Source: an uncultured Clostridia bacterium
GTDB taxonomy: Bacteria > Bacillota > Clostridia > Christensenellales > CAG-138
Reading direction: 5' to 3'
Assembly (NCBI GenBank): GCA_947168855.1
Contig: CAMVNO010000005.1
Location: forward strand, 88,439 to 152,438
DNA: 64,000 nucleotides
A program made the position numbers and the translations under genes. The notes beneath the pieces are model-generated. The model had not been told where the DNA came from. It did not search any database and worked only from the letters and a program-made list of their open reading frames with translations. Within the stretch, counting starts at the first letter, position 1, and every line of letters begins with the position of its first letter. This document shows positions 6,148 through 38,524 of the stretch, piece after piece.

Positions 6148-7208
6148 GCGTTCGCCGCTTCGCGGATGAGCTTGAGGATCGTCTCGGTGCCGTCGACGCC
6201 CTCGGCGTTTTTCATGGTCTCAAAATAGCTTTCCCGCGCCGCATACAGCGCGTTGACCTCCCGAAGAACGGAATCCGCGCTGACCTCGTCCGCAAGGAGC
6301 ACGCGCGCGTAGCCGCGCTTTTTGAAGTACTCCGCGTTCAGCTCCTGGTCGCCGCGGGTGGAGGCGCCGGACAGCGGCAGCAGCAGCATCGGCTTTTTGA
6401 GCGCCAGAAGCTCGAACACGGCGTTCGCCCCCGCGCGGGACACGACGACGTCCGCAAGCGCGAAGAGGTCCGCCATCTCGTCGCCGATGTATTCGTACTG
6501 CACATAGCCGGGCGCCTTGACGCGCTCGTCCAGCTTGCCCTTGCCGCAAAGATGCACCACGTCGAAGGTTTTCAACAATTCCGGAAGCGCTTCGCGCACG
6601 GCGACGTTGACCGCGACCGCGCCGAGACTGCCGCCGGTGACGAGCAGCACGGGCTTTATTCCGGAAAGCCCCGTGAACGCAAGCGCATGACTGCGCGAGC
6701 CGCGGTAAAGCTCCGGACGGATCGGCGTGCCGGTGTGCACGCCCTTGTTTCCCTTCACATACGGCACGGTGTCCGAAAACGTGACCAGCACCTTGTCGGC
6801 AAAGCGCGCATCGATCCTGTTCGCCAACCCCGGCGTATAGTCCGATTCGTGCGTCAGCACGGGGCAGATCCCCTTCGCCGCCGCCACCACGGGCACGGAA
6901 ACGTAGCCGCCCTTCGAAAACAGCACGGCGGGTCTGAGATTCTTTAAGATGCGTTTTGCCTGATGGTACCCCTTTTGCACATGGAACGGCATCGTGAGCG
7001 TCTTGAGGCTCGCGTAGCGCCGCAGCTTGCCGGAGTCGATCTCGTGATACGTCACGTACGGAACCGAAGCGACGAGGTCCTTTTCCATGCCGGACGTGCC
7101 GATATAGTGGATGTCCCATTCCGCGCGGTCGAGCCGTTCGATCAGCGCAAGGTTCGGCGTCACATGTCCTGCCGTGCCGCCGCCCGTAAAGACGATGGTT
7201 TTCTTCAT
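6144..7208 (-). CDS. murG: UDP-N-acetylglucosamine--N-acetylmuramyl-(pentapeptide) pyrophosphoryl-undecaprenol GlcNAc transferase
   Basis: MKKTIVFTGGGTAGHVTPNLAL N-terminus, LVTGGSLGA, typical MurG length. Confidence 0.93.
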   Translation of the reverse strand: MKKTIVFTGGGTAGHVTPNLALIERLDRAEWDIHYIGTSGMEKDLVASVPYVTYHEIDSGKLRRYASLKTLTMPFHVQKGYHQAKRILKNLRPAVLFSKGGYVSVPVVAAAKGICPVLTHESDYTPGLANRIDARFADKVLVTFSDTVPYVKGNKGVHTGTPIRPELYRGSRSHALAFTGLSGIKPVLLVTGGSLGAVAVNVAVREALPELLKTFDVVHLCGKGKLDERVKAPGYVQYEYIGDEMADLFALADVVVSRAGANAVFELLALKKPMLLLPLSGASTRGDQELNAEYFKKRGYARVLLADEVSADSVLREVNALYAARESYFETMKNAEGVDGTETILKLIREAANA

Positions 7209-7266
7209 ATCGTTTTCCCCCCGATCCTATCCTATGCGTACAAAAGACGTCTTTTCCCCATTTCAC

Positions 7267-7437
7267 GACGGCTCTGCCGTCAATTCATGTGCGAAGCGCA
7301 ATTCATTCATCCGCGAAAAGCGTCCCGCTTTTCTGCGCGTCCACCTCATCCGCCTTACGGCACCTTCTCCTCGAAGGAGAAGGCTTTTGGCTGCGCACAA
7401 TTCACGCGCCGTAAGGCATATCGCGGCAAAGCAGCCG
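7267..7437. repeat. Mosaic intergenic repeat (AATTCAT mini-hairpins + CCTCATCCGCC/GGCACCTTC element + CATATCGCGGCAAAGC word)
   Basis: GACGGctctGCCGTC-AATTCA-TGTGCGaaGCGCA-ATTCATTCATCCGCG..., CCACCTCATCCGCCTTACGGCACCTTCTCCtcgaAGGAGAAGGC, CAATTCAC, GGCATATCGCGGCAAAGC. The same words occur at other loci in this window. Confidence 0.8.
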
Positions 7438-30955: not shown

Positions 30956-31208
30956 GATGTCCGAATTCGGGTCTGTGGTTGCAAGTCGATGCCAGTCGCA
31001 GGCGAAACGATCCACATAAGCGGGCCAAAGCGCCCGTGAGCATGGTGCGGCTTAGAAGTAAGTCCGGCCGGCGGTATTCCGCCGAGAGGGGCAGTAGTGG
31101 GGAGCAAGGCTTATGAGCGAACCCTCCTGCCGGCGAGTGTGGGGGCAAAGACCAGGTCAGCCGAAGACGGAGATCAAAAATATCCAATTCGCGAAGGGAA
31201 AAATCATC
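30956..31208 (+). promoter_or_regulatory. ~250-nt GC-rich structured 5' leader upstream of the zinc-ribbon gene (family not recognised)
   Basis: No SD-preceded ORF until ATG 31209. Many local helices (CCGAATTCGG, TGTGG...CCACA, GCGGGCcaaaGCGCCCG, GGCGGtattCCGCC, CCCTCC...GGGGG). Confidence 0.35.
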
Positions 31209-31487
31209 ATGTACGAAGACAGAACACTGGTTTGCAGAGACTGCGGCAAGGAATTCATTTTCAGCGCGGGCGAGCAGGAATTTTACGCAAAGAACGATTT
31301 TAAAAACGACCCCGTCCGCTGCCCGGAATGCCGGAGAGCACGTAAGAACGCCGCGCGCAATCAGAGCCGTGAGATGTTCGACGCCGTCTGCGCCTCCTGC
31401 GGCAAGCCGACCAAGGTGCCGTTCCAGCCGAGAAACGACAAGCCGATCTATTGCTCGGAGTGCTTTGCAGCACGCCGCGGCAGATAA
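31209..31487 (+). CDS. Small zinc-ribbon protein (three CxxC pairs)
   Basis: MYEDRTLVCRDCGKEF...RCPECRR...CASCGK...YCSECF. Bidirectional terminator at 31504..31533. Confidence 0.7.
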   Translation: MYEDRTLVCRDCGKEFIFSAGEQEFYAKNDFKNDPVRCPECRRARKNAARNQSREMFDAVCASCGKPTKVPFQPRNDKPIYCSECFAARRGR

Positions 31488-31561: not shown

Positions 31562-31975
31562 TCAGCGTCTGGACAGATAGGCAATGCCGCCGGTCGCCGC
31601 AACGATCGCCACTGCGATCAGCGTAATAATCAGGGCAAGCGCAAACACGCACCAATAGGACCGCGCGTAATTGCGGCGGTTGATATTGCTGTCGCTGAAA
31701 GAGAAAACGATCAGGCAAATGAAGCCGACAATCGGAATTGCGAACAGCAGGGTATATCCGAAATATGCCCATGCGCCCAACGGACGGAATCGCTCCGGAA
31801 GATCGCTCTCCGTGATCTGTCTGTGCTGGATGACGATCGGCTGCGTCGCCGGAACCGTCCGATCCTGTTTTTCCTGTGACGCGGATTGACCCGCGCCTTG
31901 ATCGTTTTTTGCTCCGCAGTAGGGGCAAAACACGACGCCATCATCGACTTTCTTTCCGCAATTGGAACAAAACAC
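31562..31975 (-). CDS. Zinc-ribbon domain membrane protein
   Basis: MFCSNCGKKVDDGVVFCPYCGAK N-terminus plus hydrophobic helices. Confidence 0.7.
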   Translation of the reverse strand: MFCSNCGKKVDDGVVFCPYCGAKNDQGAGQSASQEKQDRTVPATQPIVIQHRQITESDLPERFRPLGAWAYFGYTLLFAIPIVGFICLIVFSFSDSNINRRNYARSYWCVFALALIITLIAVAIVAATGGIAYLSRR

Positions 31976-34311: not shown

Positions 34312-34510
34312 ATCCGTAAATGACGAAAGCGCTTCCCGCAAAGGAAGCGCTTTTTGTGTATCAGACGGAATAATCCAAATCAATCCGTCAAATTCAGCGA
34401 CATGCGCGGTGAATTTGACACCTTGCAGTTTCCGCCGCCCGGTGCAGCTTGTCTGCATAGGCGGGAACTGAAAACCAGTCTGTTGAAAACCCGGTTTTCA
34501 ACAGACTGAA

Positions 34511-35452
34511 TTAATAGAAGGTTGCAACCGGCTGTTCCGGTTCGGTCGAAGGCGCAAAGGAATGCACCGAAAGCACCGGACCCTTTTTGCCGTAGATGTT
34601 CGAGAACTTCACGTTGATCGTGCCCTCGACGATCCCCCAGCTCTTGTGCTTGACGGACTTTGCCATATCCCACTTGCACACGAGCGGGCAGTAGGCGATG
34701 TCCGCCTCGCAGCAGGTCATGATGTGGCGCCCCGCAAGGAACGTGTCCTTCGGCATGCGCATGTTGTTTGCGCAAAGCCCCTTATAGCGGACCGTCTTGC
34801 CCTCGTACTTTGCGGGCTCGTCGACCAGATCGCGGTAGAAGAGCGCATAGTCCTTGTCGTCGATCTCGATCACGTCGGCGTTGATATCGAACGGCAGCGG
34901 ATCCTCGATGTCGTCCTCCACGCTCGTGCCGTCGGTGAGATCGTAAACGATCTGCGCCCCGCGGGAGATGCCGCGCACGAGCTTGTGCAGCTCCATTCTG
35001 TCCTGCTCCGGCTCGACGCGCGTGAAGATCACGAGCTCCGCGGTGGTCAGCTTGTCCACAACGAGCTGCCGCATGTTTGCGTTGAACGCCGCGATCGTGC
35101 TCGCGTCGACCATCATCGTCTCCTGCGCGATGCCCCAGTTGTCCGGCAGGCGGTCAAAGAGATCGTTCATCTGCCACATGCCGTTGTACTCGATCATGAC
35201 GCGCGTCGCCGCCGCCTTACGCTGCCACAGGGACAGGTTCGCGGGCGTCAGCTCCGCAGGGCTGTCGACCGTGTGGATCGTGACGTTGTTGATTGAGAAG
35301 CGCGAAGGCACAAGCTCCTCCTCGCCCTCCTCGCACAGGATGACCAGCGTGCGCTGTCCCTCGTTGAAGCCGGGATCCTCGAGCATCGACTGCAAGAACG
35401 TCGTCTTGCCCGCGTCGAGAAAGCCCGTGAATAAGAAGACCGGAAGCATCAT
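34511..35452 (-). CDS. CobW/G3E-like P-loop protein lacking the CxCC motif, with Cys-rich DUF1980-like C-terminal domain
   Basis: TGFLDAGKTTF Walker A. C-terminal HIMTCCEADIAYCPLVCKW. Starts 6 nt after the upstream CobW stop. Confidence 0.75.
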   Translation of the reverse strand: MMLPVFLFTGFLDAGKTTFLQSMLEDPGFNEGQRTLVILCEEGEEELVPSRFSINNVTIHTVDSPAELTPANLSLWQRKAAATRVMIEYNGMWQMNDLFDRLPDNWGIAQETMMVDASTIAAFNANMRQLVVDKLTTAELVIFTRVEPEQDRMELHKLVRGISRGAQIVYDLTDGTSVEDDIEDPLPFDINADVIEIDDKDYALFYRDLVDEPAKYEGKTVRYKGLCANNMRMPKDTFLAGRHIMTCCEADIAYCPLVCKWDMAKSVKHKSWGIVEGTINVKFSNIYGKKGPVLSVHSFAPSTEPEQPVATFY

Positions 35453-35458
35453 GGCCGC

Positions 35459-36679
35459 TTACTCCGTAAAGAGCGCCTTCAAAGCGTCTTCGTTCATCTT
35501 CGAGCCGATCACGCAGAGCCGCCCGATCACGCCCGCAGAACCTCTGCGGATCTCAACCTCGCCGGGCACGTGGTCAAAGTGGATCCATCTGTCGCCGTCC
35601 GCCGCGGGGACCACGCCCTTTGCGCGGAGCACCGTGCCGTAGGTCGCCGTATCGTCGAGCTTTGCGATCTTTGCGCGGATCTCGTCCTCGGTGAAGCGGT
35701 GCATTGTCTCAACGCCCCAGCTAGAAAACACCTCGTCCGCGTCGTGTCCGTGGTGATGGTGATGATGATGGTGCTCGTGCTCCTCGTCCTCATCATCGTG
35801 ATGGTGGTGGTGGCAATGCTCGTGCTCGTCATCGTCGTCATCGTCATCATGGTGATGGTGGCAGCATTCGTGCTCCTCGTCCTCATCGTCGTGATGGTGG
35901 TGATGGCAGCATTCGTGCTCCTCGTCCTCATCGTCGTGATGGTGGTGGCAATGCTCATGCTCGTCCTCATCATCGTCGTCGTGATGATGGTGGTGATGGC
36001 ATTCGCATTCCGGATCGTCGCACTCGTCCTCGTCGTGGTGATGATGCTGCTCCGCTTTGAGCGCCTCCATGTGCGCCTTCAGCGTATCGCGGCTTTCGAT
36101 CGCCTTGACAAGATCCGCGCCCGCAAGCGAATCCCACGGCGCGGCGACGACCGTCGCCTCCGGGTTCAGCTCGCGCACCATGTCAAGGACTTCCTTGAGA
36201 CGCTCTTCGGAAACGTCCTGCGAACGGCTCAGGATCACACAGTCCGCGGCTTCGATCTGGTTCACGTAGAACTCGCCGAAGTTCTTGCGGTAGACGCGCG
36301 CCTTCTTGGCGTCGACGACCGCGATGCAGCTATTGATCACGACGTCGTCGGTGAGAACGCCGCTGACCGCGCGCTTGACGTCAGAGAGCTTTCCGACGCC
36401 GGACGGCTCGATCAGGATGCGGTCCGGATGGAACTCCTTCAGCACCTTTTTCAGCGCTTCGGAAAAATCGCCAACGAGCGAGCAGCAGATACAGCCGGAG
36501 TTCATCTCCGTGATCTCGATGCCCGCCTCCTGCAGAAATGCGCCGTCGATGCCGATCTCGCCGAATTCGTTTTCGATCAGCACGAGCTTTTCGCCGTTGA
36601 AGCCGTCCGCGATCAGTTTTTTAATGAGCGTCGTCTTGCCTGCGCCTAAGAACCCGCTGAAAATATCAATCTTCGTCAT
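35459..36679 (-). CDS. CobW-family (COG0523) GTPase metallochaperone with giant His/Cys/Asp/Glu insert
   Basis: GFLGAGKTTL Walker A, SGCICCSL (CxCC), IEPSGV, CobW_C-like end (YGTVLRAKGVV). Confidence 0.9.
   Translation of the reverse strand: MTKIDIFSGFLGAGKTTLIKKLIADGFNGEKLVLIENEFGEIGIDGAFLQEAGIEITEMNSGCICCSLVGDFSEALKKVLKEFHPDRILIEPSGVGKLSDVKRAVSGVLTDDVVINSCIAVVDAKKARVYRKNFGEFYVNQIEAADCVILSRSQDVSEERLKEVLDMVRELNPEATVVAAPWDSLAGADLVKAIESRDTLKAHMEALKAEQHHHHDEDECDDPECECHHHHHHDDDDEDEHEHCHHHHDDEDEEHECCHHHHHDDEDEEHECCHHHHDDDDDDDEHEHCHHHHHDDEDEEHEHHHHHHHHGHDADEVFSSWGVETMHRFTEDEIRAKIAKLDDTATYGTVLRAKGVVPAADGDRWIHFDHVPGEVEIRRGSAGVIGRLCVIGSKMNEDALKALFTE
35729..36050 (-). repeat. Coding low-complexity/tandem repeat: ~107-residue His-rich metal-binding insert
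   Basis: HHHHDEDECDDPECECHHHHHHDDDDEDEHEHCHHHHDDEDEEHECCHHHHHDDEDEEHECCHHHHDDDDDDDEHEHCHHHHHDDEDEEHEHHHHHHHHGH. My count is 44 His and 9 Cys. The 48-nt unit encoding HECCHHHH(H)DDEDEE is duplicated in tandem. Confidence 0.9.
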
Positions 36680-36758
36680 GTATATCCTTCTTTCCTTCGG
36701 GGTCTCCCCCGCCTTTTCTCGCCTGCTATCCTATCACACTTTGCGGAATTTGCAAGCA

Positions 36759-37655
36759 TTATATTGTAGATTTTTTGTGAGAATCGTCTATCATCCGCAA
36801 GCCGAAGCGCACGGCAAGCGAATCGGTCGGGCATGCGCGCGCGCACCGTCCGCAGCGGATGCATTCCGCGGAATTGAACTGCGCTTTCGGGTCGATGCCC
36901 ATCGGACAGACCGAAGCGCACTTGCCGCAGTCCACGCACTTTTCGGAATCGAAGCGCAGGTGCACGAGCGCGATGCGGTTGAAGCATCCGTAGATCGCGC
37001 CGAGCGGGCACAGATACCGGCAGAACGGACGGGAAATCAGAAGCGACAGCAGAAGCAGCGAAGCGAGCACGCCGACCTTCCACCAGAACAGGAAGCCGAG
37101 CTGTCCCCGAAGCGACGGATTCGCAAGCACCAGCGGGATCCCGCCGAACAGCGTACCCGACGGACACAGAAGCTTACAGAACCACGGCACGAGCACGCCT
37201 TTGAACGCCGATAAAAGCGGCAGCCCGATCACGAGCACGCCGAGCACGGCGTATTTGAGCCACCGAAGATACCGTTCGAAGCGGAACGTGCGGATCTTTT
37301 TGAAGAACGGAATGCGGTAAACAAGGTCCTGCACCCATCCGAACGGGCAGAGCCAGCCGCAGATCCAGCGTCCGAGCGTAAGTCCGAACAACAGCAAAAA
37401 ACCGAGCACGTAGAACGGGAACGCGGGCTTTTTCCAGCCGCCGTTCATGGTGTTTTGCAGGGAACCGATCGGACACGCACCGATCGCCGCGGGACAGGAA
37501 TAGCAGTTCAGCCCCGGCACGCAGACGGACTTTGTTTTGCCCTGCTCGATCGTACCGAGGAAGAAATGATGCAGTTTCGGGTTCATCAGAAGGAACGCCG
37601 CCGCCTGCACGGTCAGGCGTTTCCACTCGCCTTTCACACGCTTTGCCTTAGCCAA
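36759..37655 (-). CDS. NapH/MauN-type membrane 4Fe-4S polyferredoxin
   Basis: CYSCPAAIGACPIGSLQ, RWICGWLCPFGW, FCRYLCPLGA, plus C-terminal CVDCGKCASVCP and CIRCGRCARACP. Probable TTG start overlapping the micro-ORF end. Confidence 0.85.
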   Translation of the reverse strand: MAKAKRVKGEWKRLTVQAAAFLLMNPKLHHFFLGTIEQGKTKSVCVPGLNCYSCPAAIGACPIGSLQNTMNGGWKKPAFPFYVLGFLLLFGLTLGRWICGWLCPFGWVQDLVYRIPFFKKIRTFRFERYLRWLKYAVLGVLVIGLPLLSAFKGVLVPWFCKLLCPSGTLFGGIPLVLANPSLRGQLGFLFWWKVGVLASLLLLSLLISRPFCRYLCPLGAIYGCFNRIALVHLRFDSEKCVDCGKCASVCPMGIDPKAQFNSAECIRCGRCARACPTDSLAVRFGLRMIDDSHKKSTI

Positions 37656-37794
37656 TGCCGATACACTCCAGACAGATATGCGCCGCCTTTGTCAAAACGG
37701 ATGCGAACTGCCCCGAAAAGACGCCGTACAGCAGAAACGCCGTGCCCGCAAGCGCGAGCACGGTAAAGATGCAGATGCGAACGGACCGCTTCAT
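37648..37794 (-). CDS. 48-aa single-TM CXXC micro-protein (CD1871A-family-like); not in the supplied ORF track
   Basis: MKRSVRICIFTVLALAGTAFLLYGVFSGQFASVLTKAAHICLECIGIG. Its ATG overlaps the tlpA-like stop (ATGA) and its 3' end overlaps the start of the next gene. Confidence 0.7.
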   Translation of the reverse strand: MKRSVRICIFTVLALAGTAFLLYGVFSGQFASVLTKAAHICLECIGIG

Positions 37795-38375
37795 CCGAGC
37801 AGGTTGTCGACGGCCGCTTTCCATTGCTCGTAATCCATGCTTCCGATCACTTCTCCGCCGACCTCGTCTCCGTTCCTGTCAAAGAAGTACGTCGCGGGAA
37901 TGTACATGGAACGTTGGGACAGCGCAACGAGTCCGCCGACCGGTTCGAGCGCCGGATAGGTCACGCCGCATTCGGAGAGCGTCTCCTTTGCCGCCTCGAC
38001 CGAATTCGTCCCGACCAGTACGCCGAGAATCAGCACGTTCGGGTATTCCTGATGGATGCGTTCGAGTTCCGGCATTTCGCCCACGCACGGACCGCACCAT
38101 TCCGCCCAGCAGTTGACGATGATCAGATCGTAGTTCTCAAAGATCGTCTGATCGATCGGCTCGCCGTCGAGCGTCGTGCCGGAAAACGCCATGTCCGTGT
38201 TGAACGCGCCGCCCTGCGGCTCCGCGGGTTCCGCCGGTTCGGCAGGCGCGTCCGTCACGACGGGTTCCGGCGCCTGCGTTTCGATCGGTTCGGGCTCCGT
38301 ATGCGGTCCCGGCAGCTTGCAGCCCGCCGCCGCAAGAAGCGCCAGGCAGAGAACAATTGCAAATAAGCGTTTCAT
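37791..38375 (-). CDS. TlpA/ResA-like thiol:disulfide oxidoreductase lipoprotein
   Basis: MKRLFAIVLCLALLAAAGC lipobox and WAEWCGPCVGEMPEL thioredoxin active site. Start moved to ATG 38375. Confidence 0.88.
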   Translation of the reverse strand: MKRLFAIVLCLALLAAAGCKLPGPHTEPEPIETQAPEPVVTDAPAEPAEPAEPQGGAFNTDMAFSGTTLDGEPIDQTIFENYDLIIVNCWAEWCGPCVGEMPELERIHQEYPNVLILGVLVGTNSVEAAKETLSECGVTYPALEPVGGLVALSQRSMYIPATYFFDRNGDEVGGEVIGSMDYEQWKAAVDNLLG

Positions 38376-38472
38376 ATGAACAATTCTCCTTTTTGTCATG
38401 TCAAATTTTGATTTATTGTACCACATCGACCGCCGTTTGAAAACTTTTTTTCAAAAGTTTGTCGATCCCCTC

Positions 38473-38524
38473 TTGACAACTGCGGAAAAAGCGTTATAAT
38501 TGTGTATGCACAGTAAGCACAATT
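38473..38524 (+). promoter_or_regulatory. Near-consensus promoter TTGACA-16 nt-TATAAT overlapped by a 7-bp inverted repeat (candidate GntR/YtrA-type operator)
   Basis: -35 at 38473..38478, -10 at 38495..38500. AATTGTG (38498..38504) / CACAATT (38518..38524). Confidence 0.5.

What the first reader, a model, noticed from the sequence alone, without database searches (positions are those of the whole stretch)
34511..38375. Thioredoxin lipoprotein / CXXC micro-protein / NapH-like polyferredoxin / two CobW-type proteins: a compact redox-plus-metallochaperone cluster with no assigned function
Seen: five co-oriented minus-strand genes with almost no spacing. (1) A TlpA/ResA-like lipoprotein with a WCGPC site. 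(2) Its stop overlaps (ATGA) the start of a 48-codon single-TM ORF ending in ..ICLECIGIG. (3) That ORF overlaps the TTG start of a NapH/MauN-type membrane protein with CxxCP, GWLCPFG and two CxxCxxCxxxCP clusters. (4) After a 79-nt gap containing a TTGCAA...TAGGAT promoter-like sequence comes a COG0523 CobW GTPase (GAGKTT, GCICCS) with a very large His/Cys/acidic insert. (5) Six nt later is a second G3E-like P-loop protein with no CxCC motif whose C-terminus (HIMTCCEADIAYCPLVCKW) matches what I recall of DUF1980/TIGR03943 domains, normally partners of putative metal permeases. Inference: an extracytoplasmic thiol-redox module, wired across the membrane by an Fe-S protein, sits beside a cytoplasmic metal-delivery pair. 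It might reduce and hand over a thiophilic metal (Zn/Co/Ni/Cu), or mature an exported metalloprotein. I know of no characterised system with this composition.
Basis: partly seen in the sequence, partly recalled or inferred. Interest (0 to 1): 0.78.

Follow-up and report, generated by a model that had tools for sequence, protein, structure and literature searches.

The report
Two conserved gene modules, adjacent by chance
The five genes are real, but they are two separate, widely conserved and uncharacterised gene sets (a membrane iron-sulfur/thioredoxin trio and a metal-chaperone GTPase pair) that lie side by side only in this bacterium's closest relatives, so there is no evidence for a single five-gene system.

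Summary
The five genes are not co-conserved.

Module B is the COG0523 GTPase plus a G3E-like protein with a DUF1980_C domain.
- It is an invariant bicistron: the COG0523 gene lies directly upstream in 79 of 79 assessable genomes.
- It usually has its own promoter, and its neighbours vary.
- The redox trio sits beside it only in relatives whose last gene is at least about 90% identical. A relative at 80% has MreC/PBP genes there instead.

Module A is the Trx-like lipoprotein, the 48-aa CD1871A-family CXXC micro-protein and the NapH-like polyferredoxin.
- It is a conserved trio on its own, found in two gene orders.
- In 80 metagenome loci, 77 carry the micro-ORF, 71 carry the Trx-like gene, and none carries the GTPases.

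Likely functions, both inferred:
- Module A is probably an Fe-S-based route that carries reducing power across the membrane to an extracytoplasmic thioredoxin. It has six extra invariant Cys where NapH has its periplasmic loops. Some relatives have a selenocysteine in the Trx active site.
- Module B is probably a two-subunit nucleotide-dependent metallochaperone. The metal is unknown and no Zur box was found.

I found no published characterisation of either module.

The parts
38415..38443 (-). Promoter-like site upstream of module A: TTTTCA, 17 nt, TG-extended TACAAT.
   Evidence: The -35 and -10 elements are conserved in L001 and L003.
38436..38455 (.). 8-bp inverted repeat TTTGAAAA-N4-TTTTCAAA overlapping the -35 element. 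Possibly an operator.
   Evidence: Read. Partly conserved in L001 and L003. Function not tested.
37791..38375 (-). Module A, gene 1: Trx-fold (TlpA/ResA-like) probable lipoprotein with a WCGPC active site.
   Evidence: A Trx-like lipoprotein is present within 1.5 kb of the polyferredoxin gene in 71 of 80 loci.
37648..37794 (-). Module A, gene 2: 48-aa single-TM CD1871A-family micro-protein with the invariant C-terminus KAxxICLECIG(I/L)G.
   Evidence: NF040920 scores 50.3 bits against a cut-off of 32. Alignments. Present directly upstream of the polyferredoxin gene in 77 of 80 loci.
36759..37655 (-). Module A, gene 3: NapH-like membrane polyferredoxin with 18 invariant Cys. They form one CX5CX2CX6CP loop, three CX3CP motifs and two CX2CX2CX3CP motifs.
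   Evidence: Alignment with E. coli NapH. Charge and hydropathy analysis.
36728..36755 (-). Internal promoter-like site for module B: TTGCAA, 16 nt, TGnTAGGAT.
   Evidence: Conserved in L001 and L003. In other genomes the pair has its own TTGACA / TGnTATAAT promoter at the same relative position.
36698..36711 (-). Short GC hairpin in the 5' leader of the cobW gene. No T-run follows, so it is not a terminator.
   Evidence: The stem is kept and the loop varies in L001 and L003.
35459..36679 (-). Module B, gene 1: COG0523 GTPase. It has GAGKT, GCICC, a 103-aa His/Asp/Glu/Cys linker and a CobW_C domain with LRAKG (the RxKG motif).
   Evidence: The RxKG arginine-finger motif is described in PMC13001444.
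35753..36001 (-). 45-bp tandem repeat, 5.4 copies, encoding the metal-binding linker.
34511..35452 (-). Module B, gene 2: G3E-like P-loop domain without CxCC, fused to an OB-fold-like DUF1980_C domain. Invariant or near-invariant residues there are R242, M245, C247, C248, D251 and W272.
   Evidence: AF2 model with pLDDT 96.1. Foldseek matches.
34475..34509 (-). Intrinsic terminator that ends the unit.
   Evidence: 16-bp stem followed by a T-run.

Best explanation
The stretch holds two independent conserved modules. They became neighbours recently, in one narrow Oscillospirales lineage.

**Module A (38375-36759): Trx-like lipoprotein, 48-aa CXXC micro-subunit, NapH-like polyferredoxin**
This is most likely an iron-sulfur-based pathway that brings reducing equivalents across the membrane to an extracytoplasmic thioredoxin. 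That would make it an alternative to CcdA/DsbD. The inferred electron route is:
1. A cytoplasmic low-potential donor.
2. The two C-terminal [4Fe-4S] sites of the polyferredoxin.
3. The two NapH-type CX3CP motifs at the inner face.
4. Six extra invariant Cys (CX5CX2CX6CP plus a third CX3CP) in the two outer loops, together with the outward-facing CXXC of the micro-subunit.
5. The WCGPC site of the lipoprotein.
6. Oxidised envelope proteins.

Shown: the trio is conserved, it occurs in two gene orders, the Cys are invariant, and the extra Cys fall where NapH has no Cys. Inferred: the topology, the direction of electron flow, the donor and the substrates.

**Module B (36679-34511): a two-subunit G3E metallochaperone**
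One subunit is a canonical COG0523 GTPase with CxCC, a poly-His/Cys/acidic reservoir and an RxKG C-terminal domain. The other is always co-translated with it. It is a CxCC-less G3E paralogue whose OB-fold DUF1980_C domain carries an invariant CC..D motif.

The likely mechanism is that nucleotide-dependent pairing of the two G domains moves a thiophilic divalent metal between the CxCC site and the CC site, or on to a client. The metal is most plausibly Zn, but Ni or Co are not excluded.

Shown: obligate pairing, domain folds and conserved residues. Inferred: heterodimer formation, metal identity and clients.

In the window the two modules may be co-transcribed by read-through. An internal promoter, and the independence of the modules everywhere else, argue against a shared function.
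For: **The pair is independent of the trio**
- The cobW gene is directly upstream of the G3E-DUF1980_C gene in 79 of 79 assessable species genomes. The gaps are mostly 0-40 nt.
- No other neighbour is conserved around the pair.
- The pair has its own TTGACA / TGnTATAAT promoter, often preceded by a terminator.
- The trio is adjacent only in L001 (90% identical) and L003 (94%). L170 (80%) has MreC/PBP genes upstream, although the downstream synteny is kept.

**The trio is independent of the pair**
- It appears in 6 of 6 diverse contexts and in two gene orders.
- In 80 metagenome loci, 77 have the micro-ORF, 71 have the Trx-like gene and 0 have either GTPase.
- The Trx-like partners are lipoproteins with CGPC, CKPC or CGTC active sites. 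In L087 and L088 the site reads U-PGC, with TGA at the first Cys.

**Features of the polyferredoxin and micro-protein**
- 18 Cys are invariant across 32 sequences.
- NapH shares only two CX3CP motifs and the two ferredoxin motifs. The other six Cys align to NapH's loop regions.
- K+R counts place the N-terminus, the 98-130 loop and the C-terminus inside the cell.
- The micro-protein's N-terminus carries net +2 to +4 and its C-tail about 0.

**Features of the G3E-DUF1980_C protein and its partner**
- The AF2 model has pLDDT 96.1. The N-domain matches YjiA, HypB, MeaB and UreG. The C-domain matches the OB-fold N-domains of AsnRS/AspRS.
- The G domains of the two proteins are paralogous: 25% identity, E = 1e-10, with the CxCC loop deleted in gene 5.
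- The His-rich linker is universal in the partner COG0523: 35-171 aa with 10-55 His.
Against: **General**
- There are no experimental data, and no structural model of either complex.

**Module A**
- The single-sequence AF2 model of the polyferredoxin was unusable (pLDDT 52). Its topology therefore rests on hydropathy, the positive-inside rule and homology to NapH.
- The 35-76 loop has 3.3 K+R on average, which is ambiguous.
- Some micro-proteins have near-equal charge on both sides of the TM helix.
- The role of CX3CP motifs is unresolved even in NapH, NosR and RdhC (PMC5928378).
- I could not test whether genomes with the trio lack CcdA/DsbD.

**Module B**
- No Zur/Fur-type box or riboswitch was found. 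Metal and regulation are therefore unknown.
- Heterodimer formation is untested.

**Adjacency**
- In the window there is no terminator between the two modules. Co-expression, and a lineage-specific functional link, cannot be excluded.
Confidence: 0.62

Rival explanations
1. All five genes form one system in which the extracytoplasmic thiol/Fe-S module reduces a metal, or an exported metalloprotein, that the two GTPases load.
For: - The five genes are co-oriented, tightly spaced, have no terminator between genes 3 and 4, and end in one terminator.
- The arrangement is conserved in L001 and L003.
- A distant relative of the polyferredoxin, CcoG, is a cupric reductase (from my own knowledge; not checked here).
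Against: - The genes are not co-conserved. 0 of 80 trio loci carry the GTPases.
- About 78 pair loci at 47-54% identity lack the trio.
- L170 at 80% identity lacks the trio at this position.
- An internal promoter precedes the cobW gene.
- L001 and L003 are too closely related to the window for shared synteny to count as evidence.
Confidence: 0.08
2. Module A runs in the oxidative direction. The Trx-like lipoprotein forms disulfides in exported proteins and is re-oxidised by the polyferredoxin, in the way DsbB or VKOR re-oxidise DsbA.
For: - The same trio architecture would fit either direction of electron flow.
- To my knowledge, Clostridia generally lack DsbB.
Against: - The active sites are CGPC, CKPC, CGTC or U-PGC. 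These are thioredoxin/TlpA-like sites, not the CPHC of DsbA.
- The best family matches are reductive ones: StoA, ResA, TlpA and Trx.
- Low-potential ferredoxin-type clusters are poor electron sinks in strict anaerobes (general knowledge).
Confidence: 0.1
3. The polyferredoxin is an ordinary NapH/NosR-type quinol dehydrogenase that feeds a respiratory or detoxifying reductase. The Trx-like protein and the micro-protein would serve only to assemble it.
For: - It shares the membrane module of NapH: two CX3CP motifs plus two ferredoxin motifs (PMC5928378).
- NapH-like modules are used with many different partners (PMC8238504).
Against: - It scores far below the NapH family cut-offs: 76 against 213, and 65 against 234.
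- No reductase, cytochrome or FMN-binding gene is conserved next to it. The only conserved partners are the micro-protein and the Trx-like gene, plus in many loci a two-component system.
Confidence: 0.12
4. Module B is specifically a Zur-regulated response to zinc limitation, like ZigA or ZagA (YciC).
For: - It has the CxCC motif, an RxKG C-terminal domain and a His-rich linker, as in Zn-linked COG0523 proteins (PMC2770081, listed but not opened; PMC13001444).
Against: - It scores 82 bits against ZigA's cut-off of 600.
- No Zur-like palindrome was found in 67 upstream regions or in the window.
- No Zn-independent paralogue genes or Zn transporter genes lie nearby.
- The promoters look strong and constitutive.
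Confidence: 0.25

Closest known systems
NapH / NosR / RdhC (PceC) membrane module, i.e. the 'NapH-like' systems of Meheust et al. 2021 (PMC8238504)
   Same: - Four-helix membrane module with two CX3CP motifs at the inner face.
- Two C-terminal CX2CX2CX3CP ferredoxin motifs (PMC5928378).
- Proposed role in moving electrons across the membrane to an extracytoplasmic partner.
   Different: - Only 23% identical to E. coli NapH and far below the family cut-offs.
- It has six extra invariant Cys, namely a CX5CX2CX6CP loop and a third CX3CP, at the positions of NapH's periplasmic loops.
- Its conserved partners are a Trx-like lipoprotein and a 48-aa CXXC subunit. The described systems instead use NapG, an FMN-binding domain, a cytochrome or a reductase.
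CcdA/DsbD with ResA, StoA, TlpA or Etrx: the reductive extracytoplasmic thiol pathways
   Same: - A membrane component is paired with an extracytoplasmic, membrane-anchored Trx-fold protein that has a CXXC site.
- The likely role is to keep envelope cysteines (and possibly methionines) reduced.
   Different: - No CcdA/DsbD-type protein lies in or near the trio.
- The membrane component is an Fe-S protein, so the electron input would be ferredoxin-type one-electron chemistry rather than thioredoxin thiol exchange. This is conceptually closer to ferredoxin:thioredoxin reductase.
- The Trx protein scores below the cut-offs of ResA, StoA, TlpA and DsbE.
COG0523 metallochaperones (ZigA, ZagA/YciC, CobW, YjiA, Zng1)
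   Same: - Gene 4 has every hallmark: P-loop, CxCC, Walker B, a CobW_C domain with RxKG, and a His-rich linker.
   Different: - It scores below the cut-off of every named equivalog: CobW, ZigA and the YjiA-type model PRK11537.
- It is always followed by a second, CxCC-less G3E paralogue fused to DUF1980_C. I found no description of this arrangement.
DUF1980 / TIGR03943 (YcgQ, ScfB), the putative permease subunit paired with YcgR/ScfA
   Same: - The C-terminal 120 residues of gene 5 match PF21537 at 76 bits.
- They match TIGR03943 profile positions 90-220 of 221.
   Different: - Gene 5 lacks the membrane-anchoring N-terminal part of these proteins (my recollection of the family; not examined here) and has a G3E domain in its place.
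- The whole-protein score is just below the TIGR03943 cut-off: 81.1 against 88.8.
- No ScfA/YcgR-type permease gene is nearby.
- The function of ScfAB is itself unknown (PMC5584981).

Membership tests
CD1871A family CXXC micro-protein (NCBIfam NF040920) | HMM score above the curated cut-off; a small protein of about 40-50 aa with a C-terminal CXXC. | tested here: met
   Scores 50.3 bits against a cut-off of 32. The C-terminus ICLECIGIG is invariant across relatives.
NapH/MauN ferredoxin-type protein (TIGR02163; NapH equivalog NF007013) | HMM score above the curated cut-off. | tested here: not met
   Scores 76.2 against 213, and 64.8 against 234. It is 23% identical to E. coli NapH.
NapH/NosR/RdhC membrane module | Four membrane segments with two conserved CX3CP motifs (plus two 4Fe-4S motifs in NapH and NosR). 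| tested here: met
   C99/C103 and C212/C216 align with the two CX3CP motifs of NapH, and both ferredoxin motifs also align. Pfam Fer4_5 matches twice. The four segments are inferred from hydropathy only.
NapH-like flavinylation-associated system (PMC8238504) | An FMN-binding domain or an ApbE gene in the same protein or gene cluster. | tested here: not met
   Pfam finds no FMN_bind or ApbE domain in the five proteins. Neither appears among the conserved neighbours.
ResA / StoA / TlpA / DsbE thiol-disulfide oxidoreductases | HMM score above the curated cut-off of the named family. | tested here: not met
   StoA 39 against 210, ResA 38 against 170, TlpA 37 against 230, DsbE 34 against 123. Only the generic Trx-fold Pfam models pass.
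COG0523 (Pfam cobW + CobW_C) | P-loop GxxGxGKT, a CxCC motif, a CobW_C domain and an RxKG motif in the C-terminal domain. | tested here: met
   Gene 4 scores cobW 137.5 bits and CobW_C 34.2 bits. It has GAGKT, GCICC at residue 62 and LRAKG at residue 351. The RxKG motif is described in PMC13001444.
COG0523 (applied to gene 5) | A CxCC motif and a CobW_C domain. | tested here: not met
   The CxCC loop is deleted. There is no CobW_C match; DUF1980_C takes its place. Only the G3E fold is shared.
ZigA / CobW / YjiA-type equivalogs | HMM score above the curated cut-off. | tested here: not met
   ZigA 82 against 600, CobW 86 against 332, PRK11537 81 against 361.
TIGR03943 / DUF1980 putative permease subunit | Full-length HMM score above the cut-off; an N-terminal membrane part; an adjacent permease gene. 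| tested here: not met
   Scores 81.1 against 88.8, and only profile positions 90-220 are matched. The N-terminus is a soluble G3E domain. No conserved permease neighbour was found. The domain model PF21537 alone is met: 76 against 25.9.
Zur regulon member | A Zur operator in the promoter region. | tested here: inconclusive
   No shared palindrome was found in 67 upstream regions or in the window. The Zur motif of this clade is unknown to me, so absence is not proven.

The most novel reading that the evidence does not exclude
Module A would be a previously undescribed way of reducing extracytoplasmic disulfides, independent of CcdA/DsbD and widespread in gut Clostridia. A NapH-derived membrane Fe-S protein and a 48-aa CXXC micro-subunit would convert ferredoxin-type one-electron input into two-electron thiol chemistry at the outer face. 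In effect this would be a membrane-spanning ferredoxin:thioredoxin reductase.

Separately, the obligate fusion and pairing of DUF1980_C with COG0523 proteins would mark DUF1980_C as a metal-handling domain. By extension, the enigmatic ScfAB/YcgQR permeases, which are fitness genes in group A Streptococcus, would be metal transporters.
Probability: 0.33. Interest if true: 0.8.

Novelty: new variant of a known kind. Interest (0 to 1): 0.55.

Why it matters
**Module A.** Strict anaerobes of the gut must keep exported cysteines reduced. The known route (cytoplasmic thioredoxin, then CcdA/DsbD, then an extracytoplasmic Trx) has never been shown to be the only one. A trio conserved in at least several hundred metagenome contigs couples a Trx-like lipoprotein, in some lineages a selenoprotein, to a membrane Fe-S protein and a micro-subunit. 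That makes a ferredoxin-driven alternative directly testable. It would also give a first function to the extra Cys motifs of the NapH/NosR superfamily and to a conserved micro-protein.

**Module B.** This pair shows a COG0523 chaperone that always works with a second, degenerate G3E subunit. That bears on the open question of how COG0523 proteins hand over metal. It also gives the first functional hint for DUF1980.

**For the scan itself.** Tight, co-oriented spacing was not evidence of a shared function here.

Tried and rejected
**Tool attempts that failed**
- The alignment A1 (76 sequences, 29-54% identical to gene 5) was too diverse to give search patterns. I replaced it with A2.
The single-sequence run gave pLDDT 52 and pTM 0.30 and was discarded.
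- No multimer prediction is available, so neither complex could be modelled.

**Searches that found nothing useful**
- PDB sequence searches found no solved relative of DUF1980_C or of the polyferredoxin's membrane part.
- A Zur/Fur operator search by k-mer enrichment and palindromes, in 67 regions upstream of the cobW gene, found only sigma-A promoter elements and upstream terminators.
- Rfam gave only artefactual mir-598 hits inside the His-codon repeat.
- Clustering of neighbours around the pair found nothing conserved and nothing metal-related.

**Literature**
- Nothing on CD1871A.
- Nothing linking DUF1980 with COG0523.
- The one hit for the C. difficile locus tags refers to an unrelated ABC permease.
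- The PF12801/COG0348 search returned mostly noise.

**Idea considered and dropped**
- I considered that both G domains had lost the NKxD base-specificity motif. Both keep [STN]-[KRH]-x-[DE]-like variants, so I make no claim.
- The RYKG sequence in gene 5 (residues 222-225) resembles the RxKG finger but is not conserved in the family.

Full report
**1. Observation**

| Gene | Coordinates | Product | Key evidence |
|---|---|---|---|
| 1 | 37791-38375 | 194-aa probable lipoprotein, WCGPC site | Generic Trx-fold Pfam models pass. ResA, StoA, TlpA and DsbE all score below their curated cut-offs. |
| 2 | 37648-37794 | 48 aa, one TM helix, ends ICLECIGIG | NCBIfam NF040920 'CD1871A family CXXC motif-containing protein', 50.3 bits against a cut-off of 32. 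|
| 3 | 36759-37655 | 298 aa, TTG start | Fer4_5 and Fer4 domains. NapH/MauN is the best named family but scores far below cut-off: 76 against 213. |
| 4 | 35459-36679 | Complete COG0523 protein | cobW 137.5 bits and CobW_C 34.2 bits. GCICC at residue 62 and LRAKG at residue 351. |
| 5 | 34511-35452 | Weak G3E N-domain plus DUF1980_C | DUF1980_C 76 bits against 25.9. TIGR03943 81 bits, just under its cut-off of 88.8. |

- Gene 2's ATG overlaps the stop codon of gene 1 (ATGA).
- Gene 4 carries a 103-residue linker with 44 His, 47 Asp+Glu and 9 Cys. A 45-bp tandem repeat encodes it.
- The overlaps, the 79-nt gap with TTGCAA-16 nt-TGnTAGGAT and the 6-nt gap are all correct.
- A strong terminator follows gene 5, and a TG-extended promoter-like site precedes gene 1.
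- The flanking genes are unrelated. Downstream, an ECF-type sigma factor and a 541-aa protein are convergent. Upstream, an ABC/ABC-2/GntR unit is divergent.

**2. Are the five genes one unit? No.**

I profiled gene 5 against 1.84 billion representative proteins. It belongs to a sizeable family with this same architecture: 269 clusters (at 50% identity) with E below 1e-30. An alignment of family members (A2) was then scanned against one genome per GTDB species. It found at least 597 relatives, and the 80 best loci were fetched with 10-kb flanks. Most are Oscillospirales MAGs, and one is Ruminococcus flavefaciens.

- tblastn with the five window proteins shows the cobW gene directly upstream of the gene-5 homologue in 79 of 79 assessable loci. 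The gaps are mostly 0-40 nt.
- The Trx-like gene, the micro-protein gene and the polyferredoxin gene are adjacent only in L003 (94% identical). They are also adjacent in L001 (90%), which was fetched separately.
- Clustering all neighbouring ORFs found no other conserved neighbour. The recurrent neighbours are ordinary housekeeping genes.
- Upstream of the cobW gene, most loci have their own TTGACA / TGnTATAAT promoter, often after a terminator of the preceding gene. The window's TTGCAA / TGnTAGGAT site lies at the equivalent place and is conserved in L001 and L003.
- A relative at 80% identity (L170) keeps the pair and the downstream 541-aa/sigma genes, but has MreC and a PBP gene upstream instead of the trio.

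The juxtaposition is therefore recent and confined to close relatives.

**3. The trio is a conserved module by itself.**

Searches with the micro-protein, first alone and then as an alignment, returned 60 relatives. I looked up the contigs of six diverse ones.

- Every one shows the micro-protein gene next to a Fer4_5 polyferredoxin of about 280-300 aa and an AhpC-TSA/Redoxin gene.
- The order is Trx-micro-polyFd in L083, L084 and L085. It is micro-polyFd-Trx in L086, L087 and L088.
- None has a cobW gene nearby.

A metagenome scan with a polyferredoxin alignment found at least 587 relatives. Among the 80 best loci:

- 77 have an ORF ending C-x-x-C-[IV]-G-[IL]-G-stop directly upstream of the polyferredoxin gene.
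- 71 have a Trx-like gene within 1.5 kb.
- None has either GTPase within 5 kb.

The Trx-like partners are lipoproteins with variable linkers and CGPC, CKPC or CGTC sites. In L087 and L088 the first Cys codon is TGA (SPG-TGA-PGC). This is the signature of a selenocysteine active site. Conservation through a change of gene order is good evidence for a functional unit.

**4. Anatomy and likely mechanism of module A.**

Across 32 polyferredoxins, 18 Cys are invariant.

- Alignment with E. coli NapH shows what is shared: the two CX3CP motifs (C99/C103 and C212/C216) and the two ferredoxin motifs.
- NapH has no Cys at the CX5CX2CX6CP cluster (C45, C51, C54, C61) or at the third CX3CP (C160/C164).
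[quoted passage not shown] From my own knowledge of the NapH topology work, both termini and both CX3CP motifs face the cytoplasm.
- Hydropathy and K+R counts agree with that picture. The N-terminus, the 98-130 loop and the C-terminal part are positively charged, and the 152-185 segment is nearly uncharged.
- On this topology the six additional Cys lie in the two outer loops.
- The micro-protein has a positively charged N-terminus (+2 to +4) and a nearly neutral C-tail. This predicts an N-in, C-out orientation, with the invariant CXXC outside.

The only conserved extracytoplasmic client is a thioredoxin-type, reductive-looking lipoprotein. The most economical reading is therefore an electron path from cytoplasmic Fe-S clusters, through the membrane module, to an outer Cys-rich site built with the micro-subunit, and on to the Trx.

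This reading is inferred, and the polyferredoxin could not be modelled. The published survey of NapH-like systems describes FMN-binding, cytochrome and reductase partners, but not Trx-like partners (PMC8238504). I found no paper on the CD1871A family.

**5. Anatomy and likely mechanism of module B.**

- The partner COG0523 is highly conserved in its G domain (SGFLGAGKTT, ENEFGE, MNSGCICC, IEPSGVGKLS) and in its C-terminal domain (LRAKG).
- It always carries a His/Cys/acidic linker of 35-171 residues.
- LRAKG matches the RxKG 'self-GAP' arginine finger recently shown for ZigA and MigC (PMC13001444).
- Gene 5 models with very high confidence (pLDDT 96.1).
- Its N-domain superposes on YjiA, HypB, MeaB and UreG. 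Its C-domain resembles the OB-fold N-domains of AsnRS/AspRS.
- Its G domain is a paralogue of the cobW G domain (25% identity, E = 1e-10), with the CxCC loop deleted.
- Family-wide invariant or near-invariant residues are the P-loop, E41/G43, E88/N90/G91, and in the C-domain R242, M245, C247, C248, D251 and W272.

G3E proteins act as nucleotide-dependent dimers that bind metal at the interface (established for HypB and UreG). I therefore propose a heterodimeric chaperone in which metal passes between the CxCC site and the CC..D site.

Metal identity and regulation are open. No Zur-like operator, riboswitch or metal-related neighbour was found. Full-length DUF1980 proteins (YcgQ/ScfB) are of unknown function (PMC5584981).

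**6. Verdict.**

- The single-system interpretation is not supported.
- Each half is a genuine, conserved and apparently uncharacterised variant of a known kind of system.
- Co-transcription in this lineage remains possible, because no terminator separates the modules. A lineage-specific link is therefore not excluded, but nothing supports it.

Noticed in passing
L087:7021-7590 and L088:7097-7588: The Trx-like lipoprotein of the trio has an in-frame TGA exactly at the first Cys of the CXXC site (…FFSPG-TGA-PGC…). The gene callers split it into two ORFs. It is probably a selenocysteine (U-x-x-C) variant. I did not look for a SECIS element.
   Followed up: partly
window 35753-36001: The His/Asp/Glu/Cys linker of the COG0523 protein is encoded by a 45-bp tandem repeat (5.4 copies, 77-79% matches). 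Linker length varies from 35 to 171 aa among relatives, which suggests expansion and contraction of the repeat. The Rfam mir-598 hits in this stretch are artefacts of the repeat.
   Followed up: partly
window 38436-38455: An inverted repeat, TTTGAAAA-N4-TTTTCAAA, overlaps the -35 element of the module A promoter. It lies in the 125-nt divergent region shared with the ABC/GntR operon, whose promoter is a perfect TTGACA-16-TATAAT at 38473-38500. The core GAAAA…TTTTC is conserved in L001 and L003. It may be an operator, perhaps for the neighbouring GntR regulator.
   Followed up: partly
L090-L169 (for example L148:1969-2688 and L146:2860-4011); L097:2965-4077: An OmpR-type response regulator and a HAMP/HisKA histidine kinase lie next to the trio in about 50 of the 80 metagenome loci. 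In L097 the kinase gene sits between the polyferredoxin gene and the micro-protein gene. This suggests envelope-stress-type regulation in those lineages. Many of these loci are close relatives of each other, so the count overstates independence. The window has no such pair nearby.
   Followed up: partly
L003:6309-7367: The closest species-level relative appears to carry two tandem Trx-like genes upstream of the micro-protein gene. tblastn hits lie at 6309-6905 and 6903-7367.
   Followed up: no
window 36698-36711, and the 5' leaders of the cobW gene in many loci: A short GC-rich hairpin sits between the -10 element and the ribosome-binding site of the cobW gene. In the window, L001 and L003 the stem is kept and the loop varies. 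Many unrelated loci also have a small hairpin at this position. No Rfam family matches it. It could stabilise the 5' end or be regulatory.
   Followed up: no
window 31113-31487 and 31562-31975: Two small zinc-ribbon or treble-clef proteins (zf_Tbcl, Zn_Ribbon_1) lie about 3 kb downstream of the cluster, on opposite strands. I see no evident connection to the cluster.
   Followed up: no
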